A stretch of 64,000 bases of DNA from the human T2T-CHM13v2.0 reference genome, Homo sapiens: assembly GCF_009914755.1 (NCBI RefSeq), contig NC_060942.1; one strand, written 5' to 3'. The notes below the pieces were generated by a model. That model worked only from the letters and a program-made list of their open reading frames with translations, was not told where the DNA came from and did no database searches. Position numbers and translations under genes: made by a program. Positions 5,831 through 61,963 of the stretch are shown in pieces. Every line of letters starts with the position of its first letter. Position 1 is the stretch's first letter.

Positions 5831-5906
5831 GTGTGGCAAAGGGAAGCTGGAAGATGGGGATGGCATCAACCTGAATGACATCGAGAAGGTCCTTCCAGCC
5901 TGGCAG
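5831..5906 (+). CDS. CTIF: CTIF internal coding exon, 76 nt (phase 2 in, phase 0 out), encodes (G)CGKGKLEDGDGINLNDIEKVLPAWQ
   Basis: Polypyrimidine tract plus CCAG acceptor ending 5830; CAG|GTAGGT donor at 5907. The peptide matches my recollection of the human CTIF N-terminal region and joins in frame to exon 51020-51096. Confidence 0.95.
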
Positions 5907-6739: not shown

Positions 6740-7158
6740 TTAAGACCTCATCTATTTGATTATGATGTGCCTTGGTGTGGTGGTTTTCTTCATGTTTCTC
6801 CCACTTGGGATTTATTGAGTTTCTTGGATCTGTAGGTTTATAGTTTCATCAAATTTGGAAAATTTTCAGCCACGATTCCTCCTACTTTCCCTCAACCCTG
6901 GGGTTCCAATTGTATGTATTCTATGCTTCTTCATCTTTTCCCATGGCTCACCAAAGCTCTGCCTGATTTTTTAAAGTCTTTCTTTACTCTCTTTGTTTCA
7001 TTTTGGATAGCTTTTATTGCTATTTCTTCAAGTTCACTAATATTTTATTCCAGTGTCAAATCTACTGTTAATCCCATTCAGTATATTTTTCATTTCAGAC
7101 ATTGTAGTTTTTATCTCTCGAAGGTCATTGTGGGCTTTTTTAATAAATAAATAAATAA

Positions 7159-7210
<52 letters not shown>

Positions 7211-14816: not shown

Positions 14817-14830
14817 CCACTAGAGGGCAC
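14817..14830 (+). promoter_or_regulatory. CTCF consensus motif CCACTAGAGGGCAC
   Basis: 14/14 match to CCASYAGRKGGCRS; binding not demonstrated. Confidence 0.55.
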
Positions 14831-16358
14831 CAGCGCACCACTCTGCAGGCTCCAGCCTGGTGCTTGCTGTGGGAAGTCCCCTGGTCCCAGCGCCAGCAGC
14901 CAAAGGCGTCTTCACCGGCCATGCCTCCTGGTCAGCGCTGCACATGCACACTGTCCTGAAAATGACCCCACTCAATGCCCAGGCCCTTCCTCCCTGCAGC
15001 AAGTGGGAGGATGGCGAGGTGCAAGAGGCAGCCACACTAAGGTGTAGGGAAGCTCCTGTTGGGCCACATGTCCCCTGCTAGGCCAAGGCATGACACTCCT
15101 CCAGAGGGCCCGCCCCTCCCTGGGACCCCTGGGAACACACTGCTTCCAGGAGGGCAGCAGCACGGGGCTGCAGGGGAACACCCACTGGGGTGGGGCTGGG
15201 GGAGTTACAAAGTGTTGGCTTCCGCCCTTGGAAGGATGGGGGCTGGCTAAGTGGGGAGATGGAGCCGCATAATCTGTAATCCATAGTCTAAGCCGAGTTA
15301 ATTTACTAAGTTCTGAATTAACTTGACTAAGTTCCAAGTTAACTTGACCAAGTTCCATGTGAAGGCAAGGGATGAAATCCGAATTGCATATCCTTCACCT
15401 CATCTCTGGTCTGAGACCACCCCCCGGCACCCCCTCCCCCAGGACCCCTTTACTCTGAGGTGTGACTTGGGGAGCAATTTCTCCATGTGTGTGAAGTCGG
15501 CGCGACCAGTGTGAGAAAGACGGTCTAACGGGCATGTTGTCCCTGTGCCCTAGATGGCCCCTAGGTGAGCATTAGATTTCCTCAGGTTCCCGGGCACAGG
15601 GCCCTCGGCGCCCTGCGGAAATGCCACCTCCTTATATCACACAGTGGCCTGGTGCTTTTGTGTCATATACAATACCCCATTGAAAGACGTTGTTTGTTGA
15701 ATTATCCAGTGTCCTGCCCAGGGCTTTCTATCAGGACGTATTTTGGTCATTATCCTTGAATTCTCCCAGACAAACATTATGTCTGCTGTCTTTGGTCTGA
15801 CAGTAGGAACTACATAACCCACTGACTTCTCGTTTTGCCTTTCTCTTAGGAAATTTTGAAACCAAATTCTGTGTCTGTTGGCCGTTAATCATTAGATGGC
15901 TCAGACCTAGCAGGGCCGGCTCCCCTGCCCCCACATTGCTGGCCTTGTCCAGAGCGTGTGACTCAGGAGCCCTTTGCTGTGAAAGGGGCTTAGTGCCCAC
16001 ACAACAGTGGACGCCACCCGGTCAAGTGGGATTTCTGGCCTTAGGGATGTGCCCAAAGCATTCCCCATTGAGGGTCCCCAGAAGGCTCAGGGGACGGAAA
16101 GTGGCTTTCTGGCCTCCTGAGCCTGTGTCCAAGTCCAGCCTTCACACGGGAGACGGCTAAAGGAAGGGACAGTTCCTTCCTCGTTCTTCTGCTTGGCCCT
16201 GGATGATAACAGAGAGATCCTCCCCACTACCTCTCTAAAGAATCCGAGGGACAAATGAGCTTTCAAAATGAAAATCATGGCTCCATGAAATGACACTCAG
16301 GTGTCCCTCACTCCTGGAGGAGTGAAAATGGTGGCCGATAAGGAATGGCCTGGCAGCC

Positions 16359-16372
16359 CCAGCAGGTGGCGC
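16359..16372 (+). promoter_or_regulatory. CTCF consensus motif CCAGCAGGTGGCGC
   Basis: 14/14 match to CCASYAGRKGGCRS, next to a GC/CpG-rich patch at about 16400-16430. Confidence 0.6.
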
Positions 16373-18269
16373 TGCTGCTATTTAGTAATGGGGGTCCTGG
16401 GCGGGAGGCCGGGGCCGCGGCTGGGGCTGCCCCACACTGGGGTTGAAGCCTCTGTAGCCGGGTTCCCAGACCTCCAGATGAGAAGGAGTAACTTTATTGT
16501 TCCCTAGGGCTGTGTTAGCTGTTGCCAAGTCTTCTGGAAACTTCTAGGACATGCTAACTCACAGGCGTGAGGATTAGTAAAGTGCCCCGAGACACCCAGG
16601 AGCAGAGTCCTGAAAACCATGCCCCACCTCGCCTCCCCAGGCCCTGTGCACCGGCGACTGTTGCTCCATGTCACCCGTGGTCCCACGGAGGTGAGGTCTG
16701 ACCTTATTCACCCAGGCCAACATTACGGATCAGGCATCTCTCTGTGTCCCAGGCATTGTCTTATAGCCATTATGGACTGAGTTTAAGTGCAGGGGCTGGT
16801 ACCTGTCCCATAGACGGGGACATGGTATTCTCCTAATGTCCCCTTAGTGAGAATTCAACAAGGAGCGTAATGCACCAACAGTAACACTAGCGAACATTCA
16901 CAGAGTGCTTTCCGTGTTCCAGGAACTGAGAAGGTCCTTGCTTTTTCTAATCTTACCCTCACGTTGTCCCATGGAGCACGTACTGTTATTGACCTCACTT
17001 TACAGACCGATGTCTTTGGTCGGATGTAACCTTCTCAGTAAGGGCTTGTGAACACTCCATATGCCTCCTCATCACTCAAGAATCGTCACTCGATTCTTCC
17101 CTGCAGCGCCTGTCGCATGTTTGCTTTATTTCTTTTGCGTCTGTATTCTCCCAGTGGAGTGTACGTTCCCCTGGGGCACATCTAGGGGCTCATTAAATAT
17201 GGGTTGAGTGACTTGCTCCTGCCCCAGAGGGACTCCCACCCAGCATCTTAGTCCAGAACTTGTGCCTCCACCACAGAGGCTACCATGACTTGAGTGCTGT
17301 CTGAGCTGCGGGCTGCATATACTATCTCTGAAGTCTCACAAATACCCTGGGAAATGTTTATTCTATTATTATTTCACAGATTGGAGAACTGAGCTCAAAT
17401 ACCTTGCCTCAAATCACACAGCTGGGAGAAGGGGGATTGGAATCCAGGCAGCCTGACTCCTCTGGTACCTCTTTCTAAGGAGGGACGATGAGGAGGAAGA
17501 GGTGCTGGAAAAACATTTTCTAATTCCAGGAGACGGTAGTCACGTACAGCAAGTTAGGGGTGAATGTCATTTCCTTAATAAGCAAGAACAAGAAAGTGGG
17601 TATCTCTGTTTTTCTCTCTACTGCTGAAGGCAATAAAAATGGAAAGAAAAAAAGAGAAAAGCCTCTACTGACAGCTTTGAAAGAGAAATATTTTTTTCTT
17701 CTTTTTTAATCAGACAGGTTTGTAGTGGCCTTCCCCATCCCTGCTGGCCCAAGACGCTGTAGCAGCCATCAAGGAGGGGGTCTTACAAACGAGAGCCCCT
17801 TTCCCTCCCCAGCCACCTCCCCACCCCCAAGTGCTTCCTCCCTCAGGACAAAAATAGGCGCCCATACAATAAATGGGACCAGAAGTTCTCCAATCCGTGG
17901 TTTCCTGTCTGAGACCTCCAGGTAGCAGGTCCACTGGGAAGGGGCAGCGTGCTCTGTGAGGCGAGCCTATTTTTATTTTTTGTTATTTGTGAGTCTTTTT
18001 TTTTTTTTTTAAAGAACTGATTATTCTGGAGGTGAAGACTTTTGTTGGTGACAACTGGGAAAGTTCCTCGGGAAGAGGCCACTGTCTGCGTCTAGATGGG
18101 GTTTCCACGCGGGCCTCCTCCTGCTCACTCCATGCGGAGCAGAAGGCAGGGAGCTGGGACTGTGGGCAGCGAGTACTTTCAGGGCTGTGTGGGGCAGGCT
18201 TCAAGGGGCCTGGGCAAGTCTGCCCACCCTATAGGAACACCTCAATGATCCAGGCCACGGCTAGGATTT

Positions 18270-18480
18270 TAGGGATTGGCAAACTGGTCCACAGACCAAG
18301 TCCAGCTCTCCAGCCTGTTTTTGCAAATAAAGTTTTATCAAAACGCAGCCACACCCATTCACTTGCTTCCTGTCTGTGACTGCATTTGTGCCACAGCCAC
18401 TTGCTGTGTGGACCCTATCGCCGGCAAAGCCTAAAATATTGACTATCTGGCTTTTTACAGAAAAAGTTTGCCAAACACTG
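18270..18480 (+). mobile_element. MER58A-like DNA transposon
   Basis: AGGGATTGGCAAACT...AAAGCCTAAAATATT...TTTACAGAAAAAGTTTGCCAA with inverted termini. Confidence 0.8.
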
Positions 18481-21016
18481 ATCTAGAATATAAACAGAAC
18501 AAAAAAGGAAACCTCTGAGAGTTAAAACAGGTGGCAGAAATCCTAAAGCTCACTCACTAGTCATCCAAGAGCCCTTCTGCTTTGCACACAGAACATTGTG
18601 TAATTCACCCAAAATAATTTTCTTCCAGCTTCCATTTCTTCTGCTGTAAAGTTGGGGGTCATATACCTGTTCAACTTACGTTGCAAAGCTGTGCTAAGAG
18701 TCAAAATACAATAAACCAGTTCATATAATGACAGGGATTTTTGAACTTAAAAAACACTCTGCAGATGTGATGTGGCCTCATGAAGTGGTAGTCACATCTG
18801 GAAGCAGGCAGAGAACTGGCAAGCTTGGCAGATAAGAACTGCGCTTGGAGATGGTCCAACAGCTTCCTTCTGTGGGTTTCTTGGCGGGTGGGAGATGGAG
18901 GGCAGGGACTGTTGGCTTTCCCCAGCTCCTCCTGAGACTGAGACCTAAAGGGTGACTGTCTTCCTGCCCTTGACCTTAGACAGAAAAGACTGTTGGGGGA
19001 GTCTTCTGCTCACCCATTTCTCTTTCCTCTTATGTCCTTCCCTCTTTCTTGCTCAAATCTTCCCCCTCTTTCATGGCCCTGTTCCAATTTCACCTCCTGC
19101 ATGAAACTATTCTGGATAAATCAGACCACATCAGCCCACAGAGGTTTCTTGGTTTTTTGGGGGTCTTGATTCTAGGCCAATTTTGAGGTTTTCCCCTTTT
19201 TTATGCCCCTCCATGCATTTGTGCCTCCTGGAGGAGGTAGACCTGGAACTGGGCCTTGGGGGGTGGCCTGGGAGGGGAGAGGGACCTATGGGGAGAAAGA
19301 GAATTATGGTCAGGAGAAAAGGAGGCTGTTGAGAGTGGGGGAGTCCAGGAGTCCTCGAGAGGGGAGACTGTATGTAGGGAGAGCAGTTGGGGGTGGCCCT
19401 GGACGTCTTGGGACCTGACCAAATAGGGACTCAGCCGAATGCTCTCCAGCAAGGAAATGCAGGATGGAAGGAGGATTCAGAAGCCGTGGGACAGGGCCTG
19501 ACTGAGCCTATGCCCTCCTCCTGGAGACCAAGAGGGAGTTCCCAGGATCTCCCTCCAGGCACCAGGGAAGAAGTTTTGTTATTTGTTAGGGACAAAGGCT
19601 AGAGCCCTTTAAAAGTAGGACTTGGCCCCAGTGGAGAGGTCATCTGTCCATGCCCTACTTTGGGCCAGACCATATCCAGAATCCCTTGATGAGTATCAGA
19701 GGGCTTAATCCTTCAGGGAGTAGGGCCTTGAGGCCAGCATGGGACAGGGAGCTGGGACAGTAGGCTCAAAGAAGGCCAGATTGAGGACAGCCTTCCTCAA
19801 GGTCTCAGCTGGGCCAAGGCCATCACACAGACAAAGAGCTGCTGGCCTAGCCCTGCTGGAGGAATGAGCTCAGGGTTGAGAAGAGGCCAGCAGGGGTGCC
19901 CGGTACACAGTGAGCAGGCCCCAGGCTGGCCTGAGTGGCCCTGTCGACGGATGCCCAGAGGCAGACCCACCCTGCACACGTCCACCCGCTTTGATGAATG
20001 GGGCCACACAGCCCGCAGCCTTGCCGTCCCTGTCCTTCAGCAGTTTCCAGGGTCTGGTTTAATCCTCCCACTCCCTGAGCCAATTTGGCGATGCCCTTGA
20101 TGACTTGGGCCAGGCCTGGTTGATTGAGATTGCTTGCCGGTCCAGCATCTTCCCTCCTCTGTCCTTTGTGGAAGGAGCCGCCGGGGCTTGGGGGAAGAGG
20201 AAGGTGTCGCCAAGGGTGTGAAGCATCCATTATTCCTTTATTAGCCAATGTCCCATTTCTGGTCTCATTCTCCTTCCTGGCAGCGGTGAGTTTAGGGGCG
20301 GAGAAGCCCAGTTATTTTAGTTTCCCCCTGCTTCTGTCACTGGGAGCAGTGGTGGTGGAGGGGGCGGGGACGGACAGGGCTACGTGCTCTCCAGCAGGCA
20401 TTTGTGAATGGGCCTCGGCTCCCAGGCTGACCCGCCGGCAGGCGGCCCCCCCAGGACACACTGACTCTTACTGGCTGGAAGGCGTTTTTCCAGCATTGCA
20501 GCGGCCAGGCAGGAGGAAGCTTTCCTCTGGCCCAAGAACAATACCAGGGTCAGCCCAGGGACCTCCCTCCTACACCCTCTTCCTTCCATTGTGAGCTGCT
20601 GCACAATCCCAGGCCCCTCTGTTCTATACAGCCAGGGGGGCTGGGGGGTCAGGCCCAGGAGAGATTCACAGTGTGTGTGACACCGTCAGTGGCTTGCCTC
20701 CACTTCCCAGGCTGGGCCAGGGATCTGGAGGCAGCCGATGGCCAAACAAACCAAGTGAGTGAGTGGCCATTGGGTCCCTGTCCTTTGCAAGGGGCTACCT
20801 CCAGAGTGGGGCCCCCAGCTGGATGCTACCACTCTTTCCCTCCTTTCCCCATTGACTCGTAGCCTGCCAGGGCTGGAAAAGACCCAGAACTTCCACCTAC
20901 AACCCCATTACAGACGAGGAAACTGAGAGACCCAGAAAGGCAAACTTCTCATTGCCTTGCTTAAAAATCCTTCACTGATTCTCAGGGCCTATGGAAAACC
21001 CTGGACTTTCCTTTAG

Positions 21017-21925
<909 letters not shown>

Positions 21926-24617
21926 CCTTACGACCTACTTGCAGGCCACTGGCTTTTCACTACTTCTGGATAGTTCAGGGAGTCACTGACATCACCTTCC
22001 CCTATCCCCTTCTATCTGCTGCTGAGATTTTTGGTTGGTTGGTTTTTACCATTATTTTGCTCAAATGAAGGACAAAGAATTGTGCCCTGTTTGACAACCC
22101 AGGACATGGATTTGCAAATGGTTTGGTGATTCAAGGACAACATGGTCCCCCAGACTCCAGCAACTGCTCCTGTCACTGGTCATGCCTCAGAGGACCCCTG
22201 GGTCCCGACAGCCCTGGGCGGGCCATTGGGGATTAGGGTTTCTGGAAGGCTCATTCCCTTTGCACCAAAGATAGAAACCTCAGCAGAGTCCTCAGTGACG
22301 CTGCGTATTTCCAGGTGGTCAAAGCCAACACCTGGGGTGGAGATGTGGGGGCAACCCACCTGGATGGGGCGAAGCCCTGGGCTCAGTGTTCCAGATCTTT
22401 CCTTCCAGCGCACTGCTTTGTGTGTGTGGCAGATGAACCATCCACAGCGTGCTGGGCAGAGGCCGACAGGGAGAGGAGTTTGTTCCCTGCGTGCAGAACC
22501 TCTGCAGCGGCGGGCGCTGACACCGAAGCACACTGGGTGGCAGGGGGAAGCCTCCCTGGGAATAAAGCAACAAACACAAACTTCTGTCTGCAAAGAGAAT
22601 AATCCAAAGTTGATGTTACATCGACCATAAGTAAGAACAACAAGGGAGTAGCAGGCCTAGCTAAACACGCCCTGGAAAGGCTACATACTGTGGTTGTGTC
22701 CAGAAAACAATTTTGGACTCCAGGAACCCCACAGAAAATGACGGCCTGTCCCTTGGACCCCTGCTTGCAGTGAGACCACTGTCCCTCCGAGCATCAGTGG
22801 TCTCACTTCGAGCAGGGGGCACAAGGGACAGGCCATCATTTCCTGCCCCCGAGCCTCACCCTCCTCCTGTGAAATAGGAGTGCTGGCCTTGCCCTCCTTC
22901 TGGATCCAAGCCTTCACCCCCCTTGCCCACTTTTGGGGTGCTCCTGAAGGAAAGAGCTCTGATTATTAAAGCATTAGATGTAGTCTTGTGTTCTCCAAAG
23001 ACCCTCTTTGTTCCTTTTGGCACCCCACCCCCAAAGGGTTCAGGAGGAAGCTCTGCCTCTAGCGGTCTAGGCCCTGCTCTCTCTCCAGAGTGAAAACCTC
23101 AAGGAGTGTTTTCATTACTCCTGGGGACTTTGGTGTTGCTTTTCGCTGTGGGTTTCCTGGAGTGTGTCTCTTTTGGATCCCAGAGGTCTGCCAGCCTGGC
23201 CGGGATCCAGGGAGGGTAAATGGTGGCTCCTTGTCTGCTGAGACAAGCGTGGCACCACTGTGGCCACCAGCCCTGAAAATTTGGGGCCCAGGCTCCCAAG
23301 CTCTCATGGGGGCCCAGTTGCACCATGAGGCCCAGGGCTGCTGGCCACTAGTTCTATGTTGAGTGGCCAACATGGCCTGGGCTGGGGTTCCCCTACCTGT
23401 GAGGTGCTAAAGTGTCAGGTGGGATGGACACTGCTGTGGCGTGGTGACATTGCTAAGGTGACTATTGGAGCAAATGACCTCAGTAGCCACTTGCACCTCG
23501 CATGCTTTGTGGCTCTGATTAGATCATTCATCTCCAACGTAGTATAATGTGGGGCCACAGGTGCAGGTGGGATTCAGAAAAGGGAAAATGTAGGCTGGGG
23601 CGACCTCATGCCTTCATGGGGAGGTGGGCCCCAAACACTTGAACCATCTACTCATTTTTTATCAAAATAGTACCTGTCTGTAACTTACAAAAATTAAATG
23701 ATACTGAAAGGCCTGTGACAGAAAATAGCAGCTTTCTACCCCCTGCGTCCTCAAGTGACCCGTTCCATTCCTCAAAGCAACTACATACCTTCACTGTTTT
23801 TACTATTTTTTTCTAGTGGTACCACCCTATTTCGAATACAGATATCTAATCTCTAATATTTCTAATATCTAGTATACTATTATTATACTGTTCTTTTTAA
23901 GTATATCAATTCTAGTGATTTCCTGCTGATTTTCTTATTATGAGAGAGAAGAATTTTGTTCTCCTATACTCTGTCCTCTCAATATAGGTATACCGAATTT
24001 TACTTAAATGTTTAATCAGATGATTACTTCATTAACGAATCCTGCTTTCCTTTTCTTTATTTTGCAAAAATTCAGATTCACAGGAAAGTTGCAAAAATAA
24101 CACAAAGAATTCCTATATAGCCTTCACCCAGATTCCCCAAGTGTTCACTTTTTACCATACTCGCTTTATCATTCTCCCTATGTAATTTTATTATTTTCTT
24201 AATTCCTTGAAGAGTAAGTTGCAGACACAGTGCCACTTTACACCTAGATACTTCAGCATGTTTTCCTAAAAGCATGGACATTCTTTTCCATAAATGCAAT
24301 CTAATTGTCATATCAGGAAATTAGCATTGACAGAATACTGTTACATAACCTGTAGACATTTACATTTTGTTAATTGTCCCACTAATGTTCTTGATAGCTA
24401 AAGAAAAAGTTTTTGTTTTTTTGTTTGTTTGTATTTTTTTTTTTTTTTGGTTTAGAACCTATACAAGATCAGACTTTGCTTTTAGTTGTCATATCTCTTT
24501 ATCTCCTCAATCTTTCTTTGTCTTTTATGACCTTGACATTTTGAATAGTACAAGCAGGCCAGTTATTGTGTAGAATGTCTGTCAATTTGATTTTGTTTGA
24601 TGTTTCTTCATAATTGA

Positions 24618-24924
<307 letters not shown>

Positions 24925-24926
24925 GA

Positions 24927-25406
<480 letters not shown>

Positions 25407-26704
25407 TAATAAGTATCTTGCAAGGAGATAGTTGAGACTATGTAAATATACTGTTTCTGCTAATACTTTCACTCACAAATTTTAGCATTCCTTAATGATT
25501 CGTGCCTGAAATGTCATCATGCTGATCAGCAAATAGTGGTTTTAAAAAATTCCATCTACATTTATTAGTTGGCTTTCTGCTATAAAGATCTTTCCTTCTC
25601 TATTTTTCTTTTATCTGTTTATTTATATATGTTTTGGCTCATAGATTTTTATTTTATTCTAAGGGTTATAATCCATTACTATTATTTATTTTGATGCTCA
25701 AATCATCCCAGTGGGAGCCCTTGCAAACTGGCTTCTGTGTGTTTCTAAAATGTCCCCATTATTCTTTGAGCACTTCTTGACTTTCAGGCATGAGAACTTG
25801 TTCTGGGCTTATCTGGTATTTTCTCTGCCCCAGCCCTGGAATCTAGTGTTATCTAAGGAGCCCTGGTACCTTTTAATGAATGGTTCTTAGAAGCCAAGAT
25901 CGGGACCTAGGTGTGCTCATTGCTGCTCGGTTCTCACGTTTTTTTACTCTCTCCTCCCTCATTCCTTGAGTGCCTGGGTTCTCAGGTCACAGCTTCTGTT
26001 ATTCTGCTTCTCCAGAAATAAACTTTGAATCTTTTGCCTGGTGGTGGGGACCAAAGTGTAGTTTCCTGGCTATGTGGAAAGGGAAGGGGACTTGGGGAGT
26101 CTCATATTTAGACTTCGATCTGGTTCTGCTGTTTCCTGCCAACACCTGAGCCTTGCCTCTCCTGGTACCTGGGGCCTGCAAGCTTTGAGTCCTCGGAGAT
26201 TTGCAGCCTCCATCCATGCATTTCTCATCAGTATTCCTCTCTGCACATAACTTAGGTTGCACCTGTCCCCACACTGCCAAGTTGCCCACTCCTCCTTCGT
26301 TTACTTTCTGTCTTTGCAAAGTTTGTTGAAATCTCTTTTCTTGATCTCTGTGCTTATGGGGGTTTACAAGTTTTTGTATTCATGAGAGAGCAGGAGTTGA
26401 ATTAAATGCATGTGGTCAATCCTGTCGAGTCAGAAGTCTAATTTGTTTGGATTTAAATAGTTAGGGAAACAGGAAGAAGGTCGGAAGACTGAGCTCTGTG
26501 TGCTTGTCAAGAGGAGCAACGGGAGCAGATGGTGTCGTGTGGGAGTCGGGGATAAAGCGATCTGTCTTCAGAGTTCAGGCAGGAGAACTGGCTTGTGGCT
26601 GAGCCCTGGACAGGTTGTATAGAGAGGATAAAGGGGGTGCAGGATGTACCTGAATGCCAGTACATAGATTTTTTTCTTTGCTGTTGTTCAAAGAACTCTA
26701 GGAG

Positions 26705-26707
<3 letters not shown>

Positions 26708-26751
<44 letters not shown>
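26708..26751. repeat. (AC)22 microsatellite
   Basis: Direct read. Confidence 0.95.
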
Positions 26752-26752
<1 letters not shown>

Positions 26753-29700
26753 AAGCTTACCAACCAGGAGATGGGCAGAGTGAGCAGAGTATAAGCCCCA
26801 GTCGTCTGAGGGGCCTGGGAAAATCTCTGCTTGGATTCAGACCTTACAAAGATTCAGACCCTACACAAGAGCCACCAGGGCAAAAGTGCTCTGGGACTCA
26901 AGGATAAGGCTCTATTGTCCTCCCCTGCTTAGGATTCCAGCCACACCCTGCCTAGCTTTGTATTTGCCCCTTCCTGGTGGGAAAGACTCTTCCTCAGCAA
27001 GCCTCCAGAGCCCTGGGAGCAGGGCTCTTGTCCGACACCACCTCTGAGACAGCACTGGTACGCTGTTGGAGCTCCATCAATCACAGAACCAGAGAATCGT
27101 TGCTGAAATTGCCAGAGCAAATGTGAAGCCGACTGTGTGCAAAGGTGAGCCTGAAAGCAGCCTCTTCAAATTGCCCTTAAGAACTTGTAAGGCACCAGGT
27201 AGTTGCTGGCACCTCTGTCTCTGCAGCCGCCTGAGTCCCGCTGTCCTTTGCCGTTACTAAGAAATGTGGCCCCCACCCCCAGTGGTAGCCCAGTCCCAGA
27301 AGGTCTCATATAAAGTACAAGCTGTCCTTGCCTTTTGCCAATTCACATTTCAACAATCCACGCATTCTGCAGTTCCTGAAAACCGCTTGTGTAGAACTTC
27401 TGGTAGCTTTAATCTCCTTACTTGGGAGTTCCTGCTCATTTCTGGAAATGTTTAAATAAGCAAGTCTACCCTTAAGGAAAGTCAAGACAGCTTTTCCAGT
27501 ATAATACATTGCATCTTAGTGATAAAGAGGTAGAAACCTCAGAGCTTAGTCTGGTTGAGGCAAGGCCAGTCTGTGCACGGTTTTGTCAGCTGCTCCTCCT
27601 CTCAAGAACACTAAGGCCTGAAGGGCAAGGGCTCTGGGTGCATCCTTATTACCTGGAAGTGCTCCTTTTCCAGCAGATCACCTGCAAGGATTCCTCCTAC
27701 CGACATGTTGTCACCTCAGCCCCTGATGTGGAGGATAAAGCTGGGTATACTTGCGATGGGGCTGGTGAAGAAGAGAGGGTCAGATGAGGGCAGGCTCAGG
27801 TATAGGGGTGCCAAGGATGGGTACCTAGACCAGCCAGAGAGAACACAGAAGACTTAGCTGTCTCACCATGGTGCCCAGAGTAAGGAACAGCCAGCATTGG
27901 ATGGAGGAACAAAGAGATGAAATGTCCTCTGTGCATGTATCTTGAAAAGCACCTAGTCACCATTCTAAACCATCCTAAACACGTCCTTCTAAACAAGGAA
28001 GGCAAGGCTCCCAGTGGGGAAGTGCTGGGCCAGAGGCCACACAGCTCACTCAGCCACTGACTTGGGGCCCAGGGTCCCTTGGTCGCTGGTCTTCCCACAC
28101 ATCCTGTAGTTTCTTTTATAATGAATCCGAATGATTGGTCCTTGTACAAGGCTCACAGGACATCTGTTTAATAATGTATTCTAGAATTTCCTAGAGATCA
28201 GCATCAAGTAGGTGTCTTTGAAAAGGCTTCATCACTAAAGCATCTGCACAGAAAATGTTCTGTAGAGAGGAAAGAGGGGGAGAAAAAGAAAGGAATGACA
28301 ATCAGAGCTGCCTCTCTGTCTCTGCACACACTCCCCTCTCTCATCCAAGTGAGAACTGCAAGACCACATAAGCTGCTAATGGCCGAGGTTCCCGGGGCCC
28401 CACTCCTCAGCCCCGCCATGCCGGGGCACAGAGAGGTGGGGGCACAGAGAGGTGAGGGCTCTTCCGAAAGATGCGGTGGTGTTTGGGGGCCTTCAGACAC
28501 ACCCTGGAGGAGGAGGACTGCCACAGCATCTGGGCATCCCGCACTGGCAGTTGTACCCTGTCCTCATTGTTCTCTGTTCTGCATACTGGGCTGTGTGTCA
28601 GGCCTGTGGCTTCCTTTTTCATCCCTGAAGGAGGCCACTAGCCACATGGCGACTTTTTGCAAATTAGAAAGAGGTGCCCCTTCCTCAGCACAGCCTCTGT
28701 CTGATATTGTCATAAAAATAACTCAAATCTATGAGGACAGAGTGGCCGAGTCACCTCCTGGGGTTGTTCAAAGCATGCAGAAGCAGCAGCCCGCTCTCAT
28801 TTTAAGTGGATTTCACATGCTGCAGCTTGAATTGAAGGCTTGGGTCACTAAGTCATTTTCTAGAAGGCCAAACTTTGAGTTGAGAACCTTTCAGCTACAG
28901 AGAACCCTCCGCTGAAGGGTAATGTCTAACAGCCAAGAAGGCAAGTTTCCTCCATTCTATTTCTTCAGGAGGATGGAGTCACGAGGTCATAGGAGGGCCC
29001 ACCTGAAAGGAGCCTTCATGGTTGTCCATATAACACAGCCCCTTTCAGTCTGCACTGAGCCAAACTCAAGCCCCAGGCCAGCGCAGATGAGCTGAATTCT
29101 CAAGGTTGTTGTGAGTCAGAGGTCACTGTACACAGGAGAGAGATTCCTGCTGTCCAGGAGGGGCTAAGTGCAAAGGTGACTTTCAGGGAAGAAAAGGTCA
29201 CTACCTTCCCCTGCCGCAGTTAACTCTCTGGGCAATGGGTCCTGGGCATGAGGCACTTGTAAAGCTCCCCGAGTGAATCTGGCTTGCAGTCATGGCTGAG
29301 CCCCTCTGCCCTAAGGTATTAAAGACTTATCCCATTTCCCCAGTCTGTGAGATACTTACATCATAGAAAAATAAGCAGTTAGCCAGGACTTGATCCTAAC
29401 TTATAAAACATTAGTTCAGTAGCTTCTGTCATCTTGAAATTGATCATGCCCAGCCTTATTTTCTCCCTGTCCTATAAGAAGGTAGGATTCCTCAGAGCAG
29501 GGCTCATGTCTTCTTTGCCATTGTGTTTCTTATAGGTGACACTCTCTCCCCCATCTCCACCCCACCCCGTCCTTCACCAAAACTCATCAATTTCATTCTA
29601 AATTTTATTTTATTTGGGCGTTTACAGACTCTCCTTCCATCCACTATGGCTTCCCTAACTCCTCCGCTAGTCCTCCTTGCCCCTTGGCTGTTGTGACAGC

Positions 29701-31291
29701 CCCTTACCAGTCTGCCCTGGGTTTGGTTTAAATCCCCTAAATCCAGTCACCTCTAGCATGACCTACAAAGTGCACACATCTAGCTAGTTTCCTGATTTGC
29801 TCCAGCCTGTCCTTGCCTTCCATCACGTGGAAGACAAGCTCCTCTCATGCACGGTCATCCCAATCCAGCCCCTGCATTTCCTTCCAACCCTGCATCCCAC
29901 ATTTTCCCTATCTTGCACCCCATGTAACAGCACACTGGACTAGCTGTGGAGCCCTGAGTACAGAAGGGCCAGGTCTGTCTTCTCCTGGCTGATCCATCAT
30001 GACCTGGCTCGGGGATTGGCTGTGGAAAGTAGTCCACAAACACTTAAGGAACACTCTCTCAGCAGCCCTGGCGCACCCTGCAACACGCACAGGACCCAGA
30101 AGGCATCCTCCCAGAGCCGGAACACAGGAGCCTGCCCCGCTCCACCTCTTCCAAGCTGCATGGACTTGACCAAGCACCTTTACTTCCCCATTTCCTCCTA
30201 TCTAGGATGGAGATAATAAAACCTCCTCCCTGCAAACCACCATCTCAGAAGGCTGTAGTGAGAATCAAGCAAGACAATAATGGAGAAACTTCTTTGAAAA
30301 CAGTGAGGTGCCAGTCAAATCTAAGGGCTTCTGAGAGGGCAGCAGTAAATAGGTATTGCACACGGCAGCTCCTGGGGCCCACTGGGAGCCACTCACCACG
30401 AGCATGGTGCACGTGCCTGTGAGCAGGGCAGACAGAGTGGCTGCAACACAGGCTTCTTCCTTCGGTATTTTTATAAAGGGAATCGGGTGAAGGAAATGTC
30501 TTGGAATAGACAATCTTCCTAAACTCCCCCAAAATAACTTCAGTGGAAACAATTGTAACGTCCACTCTGCCGGCATTGTTTCAGTCCACTGTAGTATGGG
30601 AAAAGTCTCCCGGCATTTCCAACTCAACTGGGAATCCACTTGACTTCCAGACGTCTAGAAACAAAGGGATTGTGCCCAAGGGCCACTCTGGGTGTTCGTG
30701 GCCCTCTGGTGCCGAAGACAATTCCAGGGCCTGTGTATAGCTTACTCTTCCTCTCTCCCTCCCTTTGGGAGACATATTTGCTGAAGGGCTTTGTATTTTC
30801 CCATACATAACTTTGTAGGGGTCGTTACCAAAATAGTTTGTTAGAATACACTTGAGATTCTAGATTTCCCTCCAGTCAGTCACACAGCCCAGTGTTCCAG
30901 ATTCGAGGCCTCCCAATGCTCAGTGACTCTTTGCCACCTGCACCAGATAGAATCAGTCCTCTCCTAAAAGGTCTTTCCTTCTTCCTTTCTCTAGCTGGGA
31001 ACAGGTGCTCATGTCCCCAGTCCTTGTCTGGTCTTCCTGTCTCCCCACTCCTTCTCTTGTGAGTCTGTCCTCCTCAAAGAAATTGTCCAAGCATCTTTGC
31101 TCACTCCTGTCTCCCCTTTCCCTCTCCCTCCCAGACCCAAGTGGTGACACCAGCTCTCCCCTGGCCTGAGACAGATCTGAAGCCCTGGAATGTTTCTTCA
31201 CTCCCTCATCTATTCTTATCCTCCACCGCCCCTCACTTGCTGCCCCAGGTATTCCAGGACAATCCTATTTACCTGCCATTTTATCCTTTTC

Positions 31292-31517
31292 TTCTTTTTG
31301 AGACAGAGTCTCACTCTGTCACCCAGGCTAGAGCACAGTGGTGTGATTTCGGCTCACGGCAACGTCTGTCTCCCGGGTTCAAGCAATTCTTGTGCTTCAG
31401 CCTCCCGAGTAGCTGGATTACAGGCGTGTGCCACCATGCCCAGCTAATTTGTATATCTTTTAGTAGAGATGGGGTTTTGCCATGTTGGCCAGGTTGGTCT
31501 CAAACTCCTGACCTCAG
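31292..31517 (-). mobile_element. 5'-truncated AluS
   Basis: Stops at CCTGACCTCAG; perfect 14-bp TSD ATTTTATCCTTTTC (31278-31291 and 31518-31531) shows it was truncated at insertion. Confidence 0.92.
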
Positions 31518-31612
31518 ATTTTATCCTTTTCAAAAACCTGAGCTTGTTAATTGTCTCACTAAATGAGACTTAAGTTTTTATCTTTGTAAAACAAAACAAA
31601 AAACCCTTGCTC

Positions 31613-31749
31613 AACTCAACTGGGAATCCACTTGACTTCTGGAGGTCTGGAAACAAAGGGATTGTGCCCAAGGGCCACTCTGGGTGTTCATGGGCCACAA
31701 AAAAACAAAAACAAAAACAAAACAAAAAACAAAAAACAAAAAAAAAAAA
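31613..31749 (+). other. Tailed copy of intronic segment 30621-30703 (putative local retrocopy)
   Basis: About 84 nt differing by 5 substitutions and 1 indel from the source, then an A-rich tail at 31697-31749, flanked by ACCCTTGCTC / ACCCTTACTC. Confidence 0.75.
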
Positions 31750-31959
31750 CCACCCTTACTCCTATTTCTGGCTCACCATACACGAAGATCAGTTTCCTTC
31801 TTGCCTGGATCTTGTCCTCTCCACCTCTCTGCCTCTAATTCTCCCATCCATCAAAATCTCTCTCACTTCCCCCTCTTTGTAAGAAGTGTTTCCTAACCAT
31901 TCTGCTGGGACATTCTAGAATCTTTGCTTTCTCAGAACATGGTACCCTGCCTCATTACT

Positions 31960-32300
31960 TCTCAAACTTTAGCGTGCATATGAATAGCATGCAGATCTGG
32001 TGAACATGCAGCTTCTGATTCAGGAGGACTAGGGTAGGCCTGAACTTCTGCATCTCCAGCCAGCTCCCAGGTGAGACCAACGCGGCTGGTCCTCAGACCA
32101 CACTTTGAGTAGCGGAACCCTACAACAATGGTTCCCACATTTTGCTGCACAATGGGCTCCTGTGGAGGGGTGGGTTGAAAGAGACTGGTGCTAGTCTTCC
32201 ATCCCTAGACACTCTGATGTTTTTAGCATGGAGCTTGACCCAGGCATTGGGATTTTAAAATCTCCTCAGGTCATTATACTGTGCAGTGTGGGAACCACTG
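31960..32300. mobile_element. Two adjacent MER5-family elements; a third lies at about 32743-32912
   Basis: TTCTCAAACTTTAGCGTGCAT...CAGACCACACTTTGAGTAG; CAGGCATTGGGATTTTAAAATCTCCTCAGG...GAACCACTG; CAGTGGTTCTC...GCTGAGAGCCAC. Confidence 0.7.
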
Positions 32301-33112
32301 CCTTATTGCATAAAGTGAATATGGCTAAGCCTATTATTATTTCATCTGTGCTTACCTTGTCTCGACCTTGATAGACTACAGCCCTCTCTAAGGCAGGACT
32401 TGGTCAACATTTTGTTTTGAGCATTGATAGATGAACCAACTGATTAGATATTAGGCCCTTACGTGCTTTTCTGATGATGAATCGGTGTTAATGAGCATAT
32501 ATGTGTTGCCACAGAGAAATGTACTAGATATCAAGAGGGAAATAAAAATGGATCTTGGCAGACCATGGTGAAATCTACCCGGTGCCAGCATCAGCGGAGG
32601 GTGGCCCAGGCTGTCCTGTGTGGCAGGCTCCAAGGGCTCTGGGCATGTTTTTGGCCCTTTCCCACCCACAAGAGGAAAAAGAAATTCTACCTCTCTGGCC
32701 TGCTTGTTCTAAAAATACTCACTTTTTCTCCTTTTAGTCTGAGGCAGTGGTTCTCGACCACGTTGTAGACTCGCCTGGGGAGCTTTTAACATCTTTGATG
32801 CCCAGGCTGCACCCAGACCAAATGCATGAGAGTCTCTGGAGTGGGACCTGGGCATCGAGATGTTTTAAATGTCCCCAGGGGCTGTCACTGAGCAACCAGG
32901 GCTGAGAGCCACCAACCTCAGGTAAATGTAACCCCTTTATCCTCATCTCAGGTGGACTGAATTTGTCAGGTCCTTCTATGAAGGAGTGGGGAGAGAGTGT
33001 GAGAAGGCTGGGTACCTATCCAAGGCAGAAAACCAGCACCCAGTAGAGAGAAGGGCCCAGAGAGGGAAGACACTGCTGCCAAATGCGCCAGGTCTCCAAC
33101 ATGTCTCCAGTG

Positions 33113-33317
33113 CAAGGGTCTATCGGCCATGATCCACGCGCCAAGTCCAGCCCTCCATTGGTTTTTATAAATAAAGCTTTATTGGAACACAGCCACACTT
33201 CTGTAGCTGTTTTTGCCATACAGCTGCAGAGCTGAGTCATTGTGACAAAGACCTTATGGCCTGCAAAGCCTAAAATATTTAGTATTTGACTCTTTACAGG
33301 AAATCTGCTGATCCCTG
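33113..33317 (+). mobile_element. MER58A-like DNA transposon
   Basis: AAATAAAGCTTTATTGGAACACAGCCAC...GCAAAGCCTAAAATATTTAGTATTTG...CTGATCCCTG. Confidence 0.8.
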
Positions 33318-36300
33318 CTCTAGAGGGTTGACCCTGCATAGACTCCCTAACTGCAGTTTATGCGTTGGTGCCTATGCGGGGAATTTTTAAAACCACATTT
33401 TGGACTTTGTGTAAATTTTTAGTTGCTCTTAAAACAGAGCAGTGTCCTGGTGGCTGTGCTGACAATAAGTCCTGGTTGGCTTCCCTCACTCAGCTGTTGG
33501 GGTGGCAGGTGCTGCTGCTCCCACCCTCTGGTCCCAAAGACTCTCTTTGGTTGCCCTAGGGTGCCCGGCAGATGTTACTGTTTTCTCTGCAGGCTGTGAG
33601 TCGGGGGCTTGGGAAGCCCCATATCAAAACCTAGTAGATGTAAGAAGTTAGACACTCTGGCTAGGAATGGACGCTATTCCTGCCCAAGGACAATGGATTC
33701 AGGTGAGGAGGGCTGCAGGAGGCAGAGGCTCTGGAGACAGAGAGCAGGGAGGGGATGAGAGCTGCCCTCAGTCAGAGCCACAGGAACCCTGGCAGTGGAG
33801 GATGGCCAGGAAGCGCCTAAAGACTGAGCTTCAATATCCTGAGTCCAGGTTCTCAAATTCTCCGCCATTCCTTCTTGAGCCACCGCTGTGCCCCTGAAAG
33901 TAGGTCAGATCACTGTCTGCTACAGAGCCATGGTGGGAATGAGATACCAACTACGTCAGCAGGGCCACTATTGCTTAGTGAGCCTGCTGGCCAGAACCAA
34001 TGGCTGCCCAATTTAAGACAACCCATAAAGACCTTTTTATGTGGTGCAGACTCTTTAATGCCGTGCATCCACACAACAAAAGCTTAGCACTGCTTTCTGG
34101 GAATGGAACAAGTAATTGAATTTCTGAAATGATAAATTTCACTATAGTCAGAGAGAATGGTACAACCAGTCTCCTTAAAGCATCTGGATTCTCTTGTAAA
34201 ATTAACAAGTTGGAGTCGATTGTCTAATTTACTAAAGATATTTGGAACAGGACTTACAATTTCCTAGTATGCTTAAAATACAGTTCCACACAGAGATTTT
34301 TCTGCATGCAAGCAGCTTTTTAGGAACTCATCTTTGTCCATCTAATCTTTCTTCCTAATTGGAAACCTCTGTAAGACCTTATCCTTTGTCATTTCTGCAA
34401 GTTCCTCATGCTTTTTAAATTTTTGACCACACACTTGTCAGGGAGATCTATTATCTTCTTCTGGTACTGATCAGATTCACATGAAGCAGCACAGCTATTT
34501 TGGAAGCACAGCACAGAATTTGGAAGAAGGGAGAGGGAAGAAGTGAGGTGCTCTGGCACAACCCAGTTACAGCAACCTTGTAAATGTATGCATTCAGTGC
34601 TGGAATTGTTTACAGAGCGAGTGCCCACCACAATTGGGGCTAACCCTTTCTGTAGCTTGTTTAAAGCCACATTCATTATTCATTCATTCATTTGTTCACT
34701 CCATCAATCAGCATTTGTTGAGTACCTGCTATGTGACATTGCTGTGCAGAGTCATTATAATGGGATCTGGGGGTCTATTGCCAGAGAAAGGGAACCCACG
34801 CACACACTTCTGGATGGGCACTCGCTGCCGTCAGTGCTGGGTCTCATGACTGATGCTCTTATGAGCATTCCGCTACGGTTCAATCCTGAGCCTCATGGGA
34901 ATAGGCTTTGATGTTAGAGAACTGAGGTGCCACCCTAGTTCCATTGCTTACTTGCTGCATTTCTTTAGACATGCTGTTTAGTCTATCCAGCCCTCCTTTT
35001 CCTCATTTGTAGAGAATAGATAATCGTAGTACCTATATCTCAGGGCTATTGTGAGGTTTAAATTAGTTACTGTATCAGAAACTTTTCACTCAGTGCCTGC
35101 CTCCATACATTACAGCCCGTTGCTATCATTATGATAGCTCATAATCCATGTAGACATCATTTGGCTCCTTCTATGGCGAGGAGACTTTCTGAACACCTTC
35201 CAGGAAACTGGCATTGCTCAGTCAGGAGAAGAGCGCGTATTTATCGGGCAGGACTGGAGGGGAAGGAAAGAGTTCGCAGGGAACTTCCTGCCATTGTTGG
35301 GCTGTCTCCTCCGCATGTGACTCGGCTCAAAGATGCCCAAGCCTGGTCTTGCTGTCTCCTTTTTCTTTATGTTCTTGCCACTCTGAGGTATCCTAGGAGG
35401 AGCTAGTAGAACCTTTTGAAAACAGCCAAGGAGTGTCACAGATCTGGCAGGTTTCGTGCAAAGGCCCAAGCCGCCTCCCACAGATATTCCCCCTCTCCAC
35501 TTCTTCCCCAGCTGTCAGTCTCATTAGCATCTGCAACGTGTAAGATGCAATTCTGGAGGTGAAGCTTAGGGCTCTGGCATGGGGCGGGGGGCTTAGGAGT
35601 CCCTGGAGTCCCCTAGTCTTTGCCTAGGCTATGGGCCCAGCTGTGATCCAGAGTTTACTTTCACCTCCAGCCCTTTCACATCAGTAGACAGCACAAATCT
35701 AGGGCAGCGAGCCTGTGTCTTCTATAACCCAGTAGAGGCCATTGGATGGGACCCCCCTGTTGGTGCTGACTGGGGTCACAGTTTGGGCTGGCCTACCTCC
35801 TTGGACCCTGCTGCCCATCCATCGCAGGGTGGAACTCCTGGTCTCACCGTCCCGGCCTGTGTTACTTTGTGTGACCCCCGCCAGACATATTGCTCTCTTT
35901 ATGGGTACCGACACCGCTCTTAGTCTGTCTGGCTTGAGCTCTCGGGACCTAGGGTCCACTTGGACCCTTCTCTTTGCAAGCTGATCTGGCTTGAGCATTT
36001 CCCATTTGGGTTCAGCAAACATGTAATCCAGAACTGGCCAGGTGTGTTTCTATCTGTCATCTCCTTTGGTTTTCAGCATCTCATTTAATTCCTACAACGA
36101 AAGGTAGGTATTAGTCTCTCCATTTTCAGGCAGAGGAAACTGAAGCTTAGAGAGGATAAATGAGCAGCATGGGTGCCTGGCCAATGTACCTGCTGCCTTG
36201 CTGTCTCAGAAGTGAGACACTTGTTACACACAGGGGGCCTGTGGAGCTAAGTAGTGGGCCTAAGCATCTGTGGTGTGTTGTCACCATGCAGCCAGTGAAT

Positions 36301-51019: not shown

Positions 51020-51096
51020 GGCTACCACCCGATGCCCCATGAAGTGGAGATCGCACACACCAAGAAGCTGTTCCGCAGGAGGAGAAATGATCGAAG
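51020..51096 (+). CDS. CTIF: CTIF internal coding exon, 77 nt (phase 0 in, phase 2 out), encodes GYHPMPHEVEIAHTKKLFRRRRNDR(R)
   Basis: Branch-point-like TACTAAT at 50985-50991, C-rich tract, ACAG acceptor ending 51019, AAG|GTAGGA donor at 51097. The peptide continues the recalled CTIF sequence directly after ...LPAWQ. Confidence 0.95.
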
Positions 51097-61921: not shown

Positions 61922-61963
61922 TCTCTGTCCTCTTGAGATCGTATGCTGCCCAGGACCGCAAGA

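What the first reader, a model, noticed from the sequence alone, without database searches (positions are those of the whole stretch)
30620..31761. Apparent local retrocopy: unique intron segment re-inserted 1 kb downstream with an A-tail and TSD
Seen: 30621-30703 (AACTCAACTGGGAATCCACTTGACTT...GGGTGTTCGTGGCC) recurs at 31613-31696 in the same, CTIF-sense orientation with 5 substitutions and 1 indel. Three of the substitutions fit CpG decay (CA versus TG at one site, CG>CA at another). Only the second copy is followed by a roughly 53-nt A-rich tail, and it is bracketed by AAAAAACCCTTGCTC (31598-31612) and AAACCACCCTTACTC (31747-31761) in an A-rich TTTGT/AAAA context. Established: tail plus TSD plus an A-rich nick site are hallmarks of L1 ORF2p target-primed reverse transcription. 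Inference: an intronic CTIF RNA with a discrete adenylated 3' end near 30703 was reverse-transcribed back into its own locus. No AATAAA/ATTAAA lies just upstream of that end, so the tail may come from decay-type oligoadenylation of a processed RNA. I do not recognise the segment as a known repeat. Cis-local insertion is unusual because retrocopies normally land elsewhere in the genome.
Basis: partly seen in the sequence, partly recalled or inferred. Interest (0 to 1): 0.8.

Follow-up and report, generated by a model that had tools for sequence, protein, structure and literature searches.

The report
Short local duplicate with retro-insertion hallmarks
An 84-base piece of a CTIF intron was copied about 1 kb downstream and carries the marks of a LINE-1-type insertion; short nearby duplications are already known to be common, so only the mix of "nearby" and "A-tail" is unusual.

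Summary
30620-30704 recurs at 31612-31696, same strand: 79 of 85 bases identical ungapped, or 5 substitutions plus 1 indel. These are the only two copies found in the 3.1-Gb genome.

Only the downstream copy has three insertion marks:
- a 53-nt A-rich tract (46 A, 7 C)
- a flanking direct repeat, CCCTTGCTC / CCCTTACTC, each preceded by A-rich sequence
- a TTTT/A-type nick site

The segment matches no RNA family or tRNA. No poly(A) signal precedes its 3' end, and no LINE-1 lies upstream on the + strand.

The LINE-1 hallmarks are real, with a flank-repeat chance of about 0.002. An RNA intermediate is not shown.

"Landing next to the source" is not rare for short duplications. Pace et al. 2009 described 824 repair-made duplications with donors under 5 kb away. 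I found two tail-less examples nearby. None of their 39 inspected proximal cases had an A/T tail, so the combination here is the odd part.

Best reading (0.6): a LINE-1 nick and poly(A)-primed cDNA, completed by copying a template held at the locus, either CTIF-sense RNA or the DNA itself. Main rival (0.27): pure DNA repair at an older A-rich tract. Primate empty-site alignments would decide; none were available.

The parts
30620..30704 (+). Donor (source) segment in the CTIF intron. It has no tail and no flanking direct repeat.
   Evidence: The best local match between its own flanks is a 6-mer. Together with the copy it is the only genome match.
30680..30704 (+). 7-bp G+C-rich hairpin (11-nt loop) whose 3' arm ends exactly where the copied stretch ends.
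   Evidence: MFE and centroid structure of 30620-30704. Its link to the end point is inference.
31583..31592 (.). LINE-1 endonuclease-type site. The top strand reads TTTGT|AAAAC, so the bottom strand reads TTTT/AC.
   Evidence: Read. The consensus 5'-TTTT/A-3' is as given in PMC5110952.
31588..31612 (+). 5' copy of the target-site duplication: a 16-nt A-rich part (31588-31603) plus CCCTTGCTC (31604-31612). The last C is shared with the donor (1-nt microhomology).
31613..31696 (+). Inserted copy of the donor, CTIF-sense, 93% identical.
31697..31749 (+). A-rich tract (46 A, 7 C), now an AAAAAC-type microsatellite. It is read as a poly(A) tail plus the A-rich part of the 3' duplication copy.
   Evidence: An exact 17-nt copy of the 5' A-rich part lies inside it at 31713-31729.
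31750..31761 (+). Non-A part of the 3' duplication copy: CCA plus CCCTTACTC, which matches the 5' copy in 8 of 9 bases.
   Evidence: On the + strand, 19 places in the 64-kb window match the 9-mer at up to 1 mismatch, and only these two lie within 29000-34000.
31292..31517 (-). A separate, 5'-truncated antisense Alu between donor and copy, with a perfect 14-nt duplication (31278-31291 and 31518-31531). If it arrived later, the original donor-to-copy start spacing was about 752 nt.
   Evidence: Rfam Metazoa_SRP hit at 31298-31444, minus strand, 54.8 bits. Repeat family D4. Alu families.

Best explanation
This is a LINE-1-type target-primed insertion whose payload came from a template held at the locus itself.

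Proposed steps:
1. ORF2p endonuclease nicked the bottom strand at TTTT/AC (31587|31588).
2. The T-rich 3' end primed reverse transcription on a poly(A) stretch, which gave the A-tract.
3. A second nick about 25 nt downstream gave the flanking duplication.
4. Instead of a long cDNA from a distant RNA, the event was completed by copying 84 nt of the CTIF-sense strand lying about 750-990 nt upstream.

Three routes give this product, and I cannot separate them:
(a) A chromatin-retained CTIF intron fragment, ending at the hairpin at 30704 and oligoadenylated, is picked up by ORF2p in the nucleus.
(b) Reverse transcription jumps early from a poly(A) tail to the free 3' end of such a fragment.
(c) The reciprocal DNA end copies the nearby DNA by strand invasion.

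I put about 0.4 on a local RNA (a plus b) and 0.2 on DNA (c).

Shown: the two-copy duplicate, the tail, the flank repeat, the nick-type site and the lack of a poly(A) signal. Inferred: L1 involvement, the nature of the template, and every step listed above.
For: - The tail and flank repeat are present at the copy only.
- Flank-repeat chance is 358 of 200000 random positions.
- The nick site fits the 5'-TTTT/A-3' consensus cited in PMC5110952.
- The donor is unique, with 2 of 2 genome candidates being the donor and the copy. The target flanks are also unique. So the A-tract is not the tail of a recognisable older retroelement to its left.
- None of 16 poly(A)-signal hexamers lies near the donor end. 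A normal mRNA-type 3' end is therefore unlikely, and a processed or captured end is needed.
- Both routes to tails on non-polyadenylated nuclear RNAs are proposed in print: an early template switch from a poly(A) tail, or ORF2p recruiting polyadenylated RNA in the nucleus, in one scenario at an already cleaved target (PMC4476161).
- Templated insertions and template-switching reverse transcription at L1-made breaks are reported experimentally (PMC11702581, abstract and figure legend).
- A chance landing within 1 kb either side is about 2 kb / 3.117 Gb = 6e-7 per event, so proximity needs a cause (inference; genome size).
Against: - No outgroup sequence was available, so it is unknown whether the A-tract existed before the insertion.
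- The C interruptions have the same motif on both sides of the insert (31588-31604 equals 31713-31729). That also fits an old microsatellite split by the insert.
- In Pace et al. 2009, 0 of 39 inspected proximal duplications had an A/T tail of 5 bp or more. A tail-bearing proximal class, if it exists, is rare.
- Junction microhomology is only 1 nt (5') and 0 nt (3'). This gives no support to an internal template switch.
- The + strand fold of the segment is ordinary: z -0.83 for the donor and 0.01 for the copy.
- No data show an RNA end at 30703/30704.
Confidence: 0.6

Rival explanations
1. Pure DNA repair-mediated proximal duplication (the 'RD' class of Pace et al. 2009), with no L1 and no RNA. 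A break in or beside a pre-existing A-rich microsatellite was patched by strand invasion into DNA about 1 kb upstream. CCCTTGCTC would then be either a short duplication from staggered ends or filler templated from the right flank.
For: - Length (84 nt), distance (992 nt) and unique donor fit the class: 824 human cases with donors under 5 kb away, mean 162 bp. 6 of 39 inspected had duplications of 4-21 nt, and fillers ran to 68 nt (PMC2671141).
- Two further two-copy, tail-less direct duplicates lie nearby: 55852-55913 / 56434-56495 and L025:3415-3581 / 5411-5577.
- The same AAAAC-type motif flanks both sides of the insert.
- DNA-capture insertions (NUMTs) tend to sit next to A+T oligomers (PMC3467031).
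- The end of the copied stretch at the 3' arm of a hairpin could mark dissociation of the nascent strand (inference).
Against: - 0 of 39 inspected proximal RDs had an A/T tail.
- A/T-rich tracts of 20 nt or more cover only 0.69% of this window, ours included.
- The left flank is unique sequence, so a pre-existing 50-70-nt A-tract would have no retroelement body.
- If the duplication is the 25-nt stretch, its right copy must have grown from 16 to 53 A-rich nt while the left copy did not.
- Microhomology is 1 and 0 nt, whereas 31 of 39 RDs had 2-9 nt.
Confidence: 0.27
2. An ordinary trans retrocopy: a free, adenylated CTIF intron fragment mobilised by L1 like any processed pseudogene, which landed beside its source by chance.
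For: The same hallmarks as the best explanation. Intronic and intergenic RNAs are known templates of class 1 insertions.
Against: - The chance of landing within 1 kb either side is about 6e-7 per event.
- With roughly 1e4 such events in the genome (my recalled order of magnitude, plus about 400 extrapolated), about 0.01 cases are expected genome-wide.
- There is no poly(A) signal.
Confidence: 0.03
3. Orphan 3' transduction: read-through from an upstream + strand L1 or SVA, polyadenylated near 30704 and severely 5'-truncated on insertion.
For: It would give a unique-sequence insert with a tail and a flanking duplication.
Against: - Apart from one 12-nt run at 17643, the run scan found no + strand A-rich run between 15 kb and the donor. 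A looser whole-window scan found none of 20 nt or more upstream of the donor except an (AAAT)n tract at 7142-7163.
- 0 of 80 + strand open frames of 70 aa or more in 1-30810 hit an L1 protein family. The single hit was a sub-threshold DUF7836.
- Among the scored genome matches to 14000-30619, 72 of 73 fall in three Alu-sized intervals. This is weak evidence, since only 39 of 15520 candidates were scored.
- There is no poly(A) signal, and locality would still be unexplained.
Confidence: 0.03
4. Both copies belong to a multi-copy repeat family, or the donor is a small-RNA gene (snoRNA, pre-miRNA or tRNA-like) and the copy is its retropseudogene.
For: The size (84 nt) and the sense-intronic position resemble snoRNA or miRNA retrocopies.
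Against: - Only 2 places in the genome match.
- ARAGORN finds 0 tRNAs.
- Rfam at E up to 10 gives 11 matches in 29500-32500, none reaching its gathering score. Three weak ones touch the donor or the copy: NEAT1_2 E 9.6, bantam E 1.7, Six3os1_3 E 3.8.
- The + strand fold is ordinary.
- Dfam itself was not available.
Confidence: 0.02

Closest known systems
Class 1 templated sequence insertions (Onozawa & Aplan; PMC5110952, parts 1-2 read)
   Same: Both are unique, non-annotated intronic sequence inserted with a flanking duplication of at least 5 bp, an A tail and a 5'-TTTT/A-3' site. Both are attributed to L1 ORF2p acting on non-L1 RNA.
   Different: That class has a cryptic poly(A) signal 10-30 nt (abstract; the body text says 10-20) upstream of the tail, and its donors are distant. 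Their screen used junctions between different chromosomes. Here there is no signal and the donor is 992 nt away.
Repair-mediated proximal duplications, 'RDs' (Pace, Sen, Batzer, Feschotte 2009; PMC2671141, abstract, sections 6, 7, 14 and Table S1 searched)
   Same: Both are short (here 84 nt) copies of a unique donor under 5 kb away on the same chromosome. Both are of primate age. Some RDs have short duplications at the junction.
   Different: 0 of 39 inspected proximal RDs had an A/T tail, and most had 2-9 nt of microhomology. This case has a 53-nt A-tract, an L1-type nick site and at most 1 nt of microhomology. The locus is not in their Table S1: it has no CTIF or KIAA0427 entry and no coordinate beginning 4444-4449. 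That position is my approximate, recalled hg18 conversion. Their method needed the acceptor to lie inside an annotated transposon.
U/poly(A) snRNA pseudogenes (Doucet et al. 2015; PMC4476161, passages)
   Same: Both are non-polyadenylated nuclear RNA copied with an A tail, a flanking duplication and an L1 site. They are explained by an early template switch out of a poly(A) tail, or by ORF2p recruiting atypically adenylated RNA in the nucleus, in one scenario at an already cleaved target.
   Different: Those donors are abundant, defined snRNAs with many dispersed copies. Here the donor is an anonymous intron stretch with one copy, next door.
snoRNA retroposons and tail-on-precursor microRNA retrocopies (PMC1687206; PMC7692494, passages)
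   Same: Both are intron-derived RNA of about 70-150 nt with the tail attached directly to a processed 3' end and no poly(A) signal. TRAMP-like adenylation is proposed for them.
   Different: The donor here matches no snoRNA or miRNA family and has no special fold. Those retrocopies are dispersed.

Membership tests
L1 ORF2p-mediated (class 1) templated insertion | Target-site duplication of at least 5 bp flanking the insert | tested here: met
   CCCTTGCTC and CCCTTACTC abut the 5' junction and the end of the A-tract. Chance is 358 of 200000. An A-rich part precedes each copy.
L1 ORF2p-mediated (class 1) templated insertion | A-tract at the 3' end that is not templated by the donor | tested here: met
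   53 nt, 46 A and 7 C, absent after the donor. Whether it was added at insertion or was already there could not be tested.
L1 ORF2p-mediated (class 1) templated insertion | Insertion at a 5'-TTTT/A-3' site | tested here: met
   The bottom strand reads TTTT/AC at 31587|31588. The exact start of the duplication is ambiguous within the A-run.
L1 ORF2p-mediated (class 1) templated insertion | Poly(A) signal 10-30 nt upstream of the tail in the donor | tested here: not met
   0 of 16 hexamer variants occur in 30560-30760.
L1 ORF2p-mediated (class 1) templated insertion | RNA intermediate | not testable with these tools
   There is no intron within the 84 nt, and no expression or 3'-end data were available.
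Repair-mediated proximal duplication (Pace et al. 2009) | Unique donor on the same chromosome within 5 kb, insert of at least 50 bp | tested here: met
   992 nt apart and 84-85 nt long. Only two copies in the genome.
Repair-mediated proximal duplication (Pace et al. 2009) | No poly(A)/poly(T) tract at an end of the insert | tested here: not met
   A 53-nt A-tract lies at the 3' end.
Repair-mediated proximal duplication (Pace et al. 2009) | Microhomology (2-9 nt), filler or deletion at the junctions | tested here: inconclusive
   Microhomology is 1 nt (5') and 0 nt (3'). Deletion and filler need an empty site.
L1 3' transduction (orphan) | Source L1 or SVA upstream of the donor in the same orientation, and a poly(A) signal at the donor end | tested here: not met
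   The repeat scan scored only 39 of 15520 candidates, so that part is weak.
Small-RNA retropseudogene (snoRNA, miRNA, tRNA, Y, U6) | Donor matches a described RNA family or folds like one | tested here: not met
   Rfam: 0 of 11 matches reach their gathering score. ARAGORN: 0. Fold z -0.83.
Interspersed repeat family | More than two copies in the genome | tested here: not met
   2 candidates, 2 scored. Dfam/RepeatMasker was not available.

The most novel reading that the evidence does not exclude
A germline-fixed L1 target-primed event used as template a CTIF intron RNA still tethered near its own gene, 0.75-1 kb from the nick. That would be natural evidence that ORF2p chooses or switches templates in the nucleus by physical proximity. 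It would also mean some 'proximal duplications' in primate genomes are RNA-mediated rather than DNA repair products.
Probability: 0.35. Interest if true: 0.6.

Novelty: new variant of a known kind. Interest (0 to 1): 0.4.

Why it matters
As a single old event in an intron it has no evident function. It lies outside the annotated enhancers and CTIF exons.

Its value is as a test case. Short proximal duplications are credited to DNA repair, and tail-bearing insertions to L1 acting on distant RNAs. This locus mixes the two signatures. If a census found more such cases, biased to the sense strand of germline-transcribed genes, it would show that L1 machinery can copy RNA or DNA held at the target site. 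Part of the proximal-duplication class would then need re-assigning. If not, this is a repair duplication that happened to fall in an A-rich tract.

Tried and rejected
- **Repeat family.** Rejected by the genome search.
- **Paralogous empty site.** The target flanks 31519-31960 match nothing else except six A-tract hits, so no pre-insertion site could be rebuilt from a paralogue.
- **Small RNA gene.** Rejected. The minus strand of the donor folds better than shuffles (z -3.3, 1 of 200). However, the tail orientation excludes a minus-sense template, so I did not pursue it.
- **Orphan transduction.** Disfavoured.
- **Cryptic exon.** A splice-acceptor-like tttcag at about 30580-30585 and a G|GTGCCG at about 30709/10 do not coincide with the copy's ends (read).
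- **Longer duplicate.** A shared 7-mer CTTACTC lies 37 nt past the donor end (30741-30747) and in the 3' flank repeat. It does not fit any simple model and may be chance. My rough estimate of about 0.2 was not computed.
- **Survey of proximal duplicates.** Only 264 kb could be examined: the window plus 200 kb. Of 17 proximal pairs, 3 survived the copy filter. The survey is too small to give a rate of tail-bearing cases.
- **Literature.** Searches for cis-local retro-insertion found no paper describing a retrocopy within about 1 kb of its source. This covers only the held open-access library.
Full report
**What is there**

The window lies in a 45-kb CTIF intron; the gene table puts the flanking exons at 5831-5906 and 51020-51096. 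An 85-nt stretch at 30620-30704 recurs at 31612-31696 on the same strand. Ungapped, 79 of 85 bases match, and the starts are 992 nt apart. Homology stops sharply at both ends, and alignment with 60-100 nt of flank adds nothing.

Two sub-strings of the segment each occur exactly twice in the window at up to 3 mismatches. Shuffles expect 0.06 and 0.00.

The six differences are 4 transitions and 2 transversions (K2P 0.075). The only two CpGs survive in the upstream copy.

**Not a repeat, not a known RNA**

A search of the whole 3.117-Gb assembly with 30560-30760 found two candidates and scored both: the donor and the copy. The tool warns that its counts are lower bounds for common repeats. Here the first look itself found only two.

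- Rfam at E up to 10 over 29500-32500 gave 11 matches, none reaching its gathering score.
- The only strong match is the Alu between the copies (Metazoa_SRP, 54.8 bits, minus strand).
- Three very weak matches touch the donor or copy (E 1.7-9.6).
- ARAGORN found no tRNA.
- The + strand fold is ordinary: z -0.83 for the donor and 0.01 for the copy. The minus strand folds better (z -3.3), but the tail orientation rules out a minus-sense template.

**Insertion hallmarks**

Only the downstream copy is followed by an A-rich tract. It spans 31697-31749, 53 nt, with 46 A, 7 C and no G or T. It is now an AAAAAC-type microsatellite.

The 9-mer abutting the 5' junction (CCCTTGCTC, 31604-31612) recurs as CCCTTACTC at 31753-31761, 3 nt after the tract. 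In the whole window, 19 + strand positions match that 9-mer at up to 1 mismatch. A match within the first six offsets of a random position occurred 358 times in 200000.

Each 9-mer is preceded by A-rich sequence. The left one starts at TTTGT|AAAAC, so the bottom strand reads TTTT/AC. That fits the 5'-TTTT/A-3' preference quoted for L1 ORF2p (PMC5110952).

The donor has no such flank repeat; the best match between its flanks is a 6-mer. A tail, a flank duplication and a nick-type site are therefore all present, and only at the copy.

**The donor's 3' end**

None of 16 poly(A)-signal hexamers (my recalled list) lies in 30560-30760. The copied stretch ends exactly at the 3' arm of a 7-bp G+C-rich hairpin at 30680-30704.

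No L1 lies upstream on the + strand:
- Apart from one 12-nt run at 17643, the run scan found no + strand A-rich run between 15 kb and the donor. A looser whole-window scan found none of 20 nt or more upstream of the donor except an (AAAT)n tract at 7142-7163.
- 0 of 80 + strand open frames of 70 aa or more hit an L1 protein family.
- Among scored genome matches to the 16.6 kb upstream, 72 of 73 fall in three Alu-sized intervals. Only 39 of 15520 candidates were scored, so this point is weak.

Orphan 3' transduction is therefore unlikely.

**Locality is the key, and it cuts both ways**

For a free RNA mobilised in trans, landing within 1 kb either side of its source has a chance of about 2 kb / 3.117 Gb, or 6e-7 per event. 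With roughly 1e4 such events in the genome, about 0.01 cases are expected. That event count is my recalled order of magnitude, so this is inference.

Short nearby duplications are, however, a described and common class. Pace et al. 2009 (PMC2671141; abstract and sections 6, 7, 14 read) reported:
- 1136 unique duplicons inside human transposons
- 824 with the donor within 5 kb and 753 within 3 kb
- mean length 162 bp for the proximal group
- attribution to strand-invasion repair of double-strand breaks

Of 39 proximal cases they inspected, none had an A/T tract of 5 bp or more. Six had short duplications, and 31 had 2-9 nt of microhomology. Of 29 inter-chromosomal duplicates they inspected, 17 had tails, and 12 of those also had duplications.

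I found two further examples near this locus:
- 55852-55913 / 56434-56495: 62 nt, 90% identical, 582 nt apart.
- L025:3415-3581 / 5411-5577: 167 nt, 93% identical, 1996 nt apart.

Each body has only two copies in the genome, both pairs are direct, and neither has a tail.

The survey covered only 264 kb. Of 17 proximal pairs, 3 survived the copy filter, one of them the finding itself.

Being close to the source is therefore ordinary for DNA-level duplicates. Having a tail plus a flank duplication is ordinary for L1-mediated copies. The combination is what is unusual.

**Weighing the readings (inference)**

A pure repair duplication would need one of two things.

- An orphan A-rich tract of 50-70 nt already at the target. 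A/T-rich tracts of 20 nt or more cover 0.69% of this window. The left flank is unique sequence, so no retroelement body accounts for such a tract.
- A 25-nt duplication whose right copy later grew from 16 to 53 nt while the left did not.

It would also need the 9-mer repeat. In its favour, the same 17-nt AAAAC-type string lies on both sides of the insert. DNA-capture insertions such as NUMTs tend to sit beside A+T oligomers (PMC3467031).

An L1-initiated event explains the tail, the duplication and the site in one step. It still needs a local template. Print offers routes for that:
- An early switch out of a poly(A) tail, or ORF2p recruiting adenylated RNA in the nucleus, in one scenario at an already cleaved target (PMC4476161).
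- TRAMP-like tails on intron-derived RNAs (PMC1687206).
- Tails attached directly to microRNA precursor ends (PMC7692494).
- Templated insertions and template-switching reverse transcription at L1-made breaks in cell models (PMC11702581).

My odds:

| Reading | Probability |
|---|---|
| L1-initiated with a local template (0.4 local CTIF-sense RNA, 0.2 nearby DNA) | 0.6 |
| Pure repair duplication | 0.27 |
| Chance trans retrocopy | 0.03 |
| Orphan transduction | 0.03 |
| Repeat family or small-RNA gene | 0.02 |

**Age**

Six differences in 85 nt, three of them CpG-linked, suggest roughly 15-35 million years at primate neutral rates. The rates are recalled and the interval is wide. The intervening 5'-truncated antisense Alu (31292-31517) has a perfect 14-nt duplication. 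If it arrived later, the original spacing was about 752 nt.

**Compared with what is known**

The locus works like a class 1 templated insertion. It fails two of that class's usual features, the poly(A) signal and a distant donor. It fits the proximal-duplication class in size, distance and uniqueness, but fails that class's tail-less character.

Pace et al.'s Table S1 has no CTIF or KIAA0427 entry and no coordinate beginning 4444-4449. That position rests on my approximate, recalled hg18 conversion. Their method required acceptors to lie inside annotated transposons.

My searches of the held library found no description of an L1-type copy within about 1 kb of its source. Subscription journals are not covered.

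**Verdict**

This is a variant at the meeting point of two known kinds, of moderate interest. Primate empty-site alignments would settle it, but none could be reached here.

Noticed in passing
window 55852-55913 and 56434-56495: A second short local direct duplicate: 62 nt, 90% identical, 582 nt apart, and only two copies in the genome. It has no A/T tail and no evident flank repeat. The downstream copy lies 23 nt before a + strand Alu. It looks like a typical repair-mediated proximal duplication.
   Followed up: yes
L025:3415-3581 and L025:5411-5577 (G000 contig 18, about 113 kb upstream of the window): A third proximal direct duplicate: 167 nt, 93% identical, 1996 nt apart, tail-less. Its body has two copies in the genome. 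The upstream copy abuts a high-copy repeat on its 3' side.
   Followed up: partly
window 31775-31777: The annotated minus-strand lncRNA exon 31777-31860 (LOC105372107) has its GT donor 14 nt from the 3' flank repeat. The insertion's T-rich complement therefore sits at the very start of that intron.
   Followed up: no
window 30741-30747 versus 31755-31761: The 7-mer CTTACTC occurs 37 nt past the donor's end and again inside the 3' flank repeat of the copy. It fits no simple model and may be chance.
   Followed up: partly
window 61929-62282: A tandem array with a 36-nt period (at least 7 overlapping 138-nt copies, 67-90% identical) lies directly after an antisense Alu at about 61600-61926.
   Followed up: no
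window 18411-18464 and 33250-33303: A 54-nt direct pair, 83% identical and 14.8 kb apart. It is probably two copies of an old interspersed repeat. Its copy number was not checked.
   Followed up: no
window 30620-30704, minus strand: The reverse complement of the donor folds much better than shuffles (-34.2 kcal/mol, z -3.3, 1 of 200) while the + strand does not. The predicted lncRNA runs on that strand.
   Followed up: no
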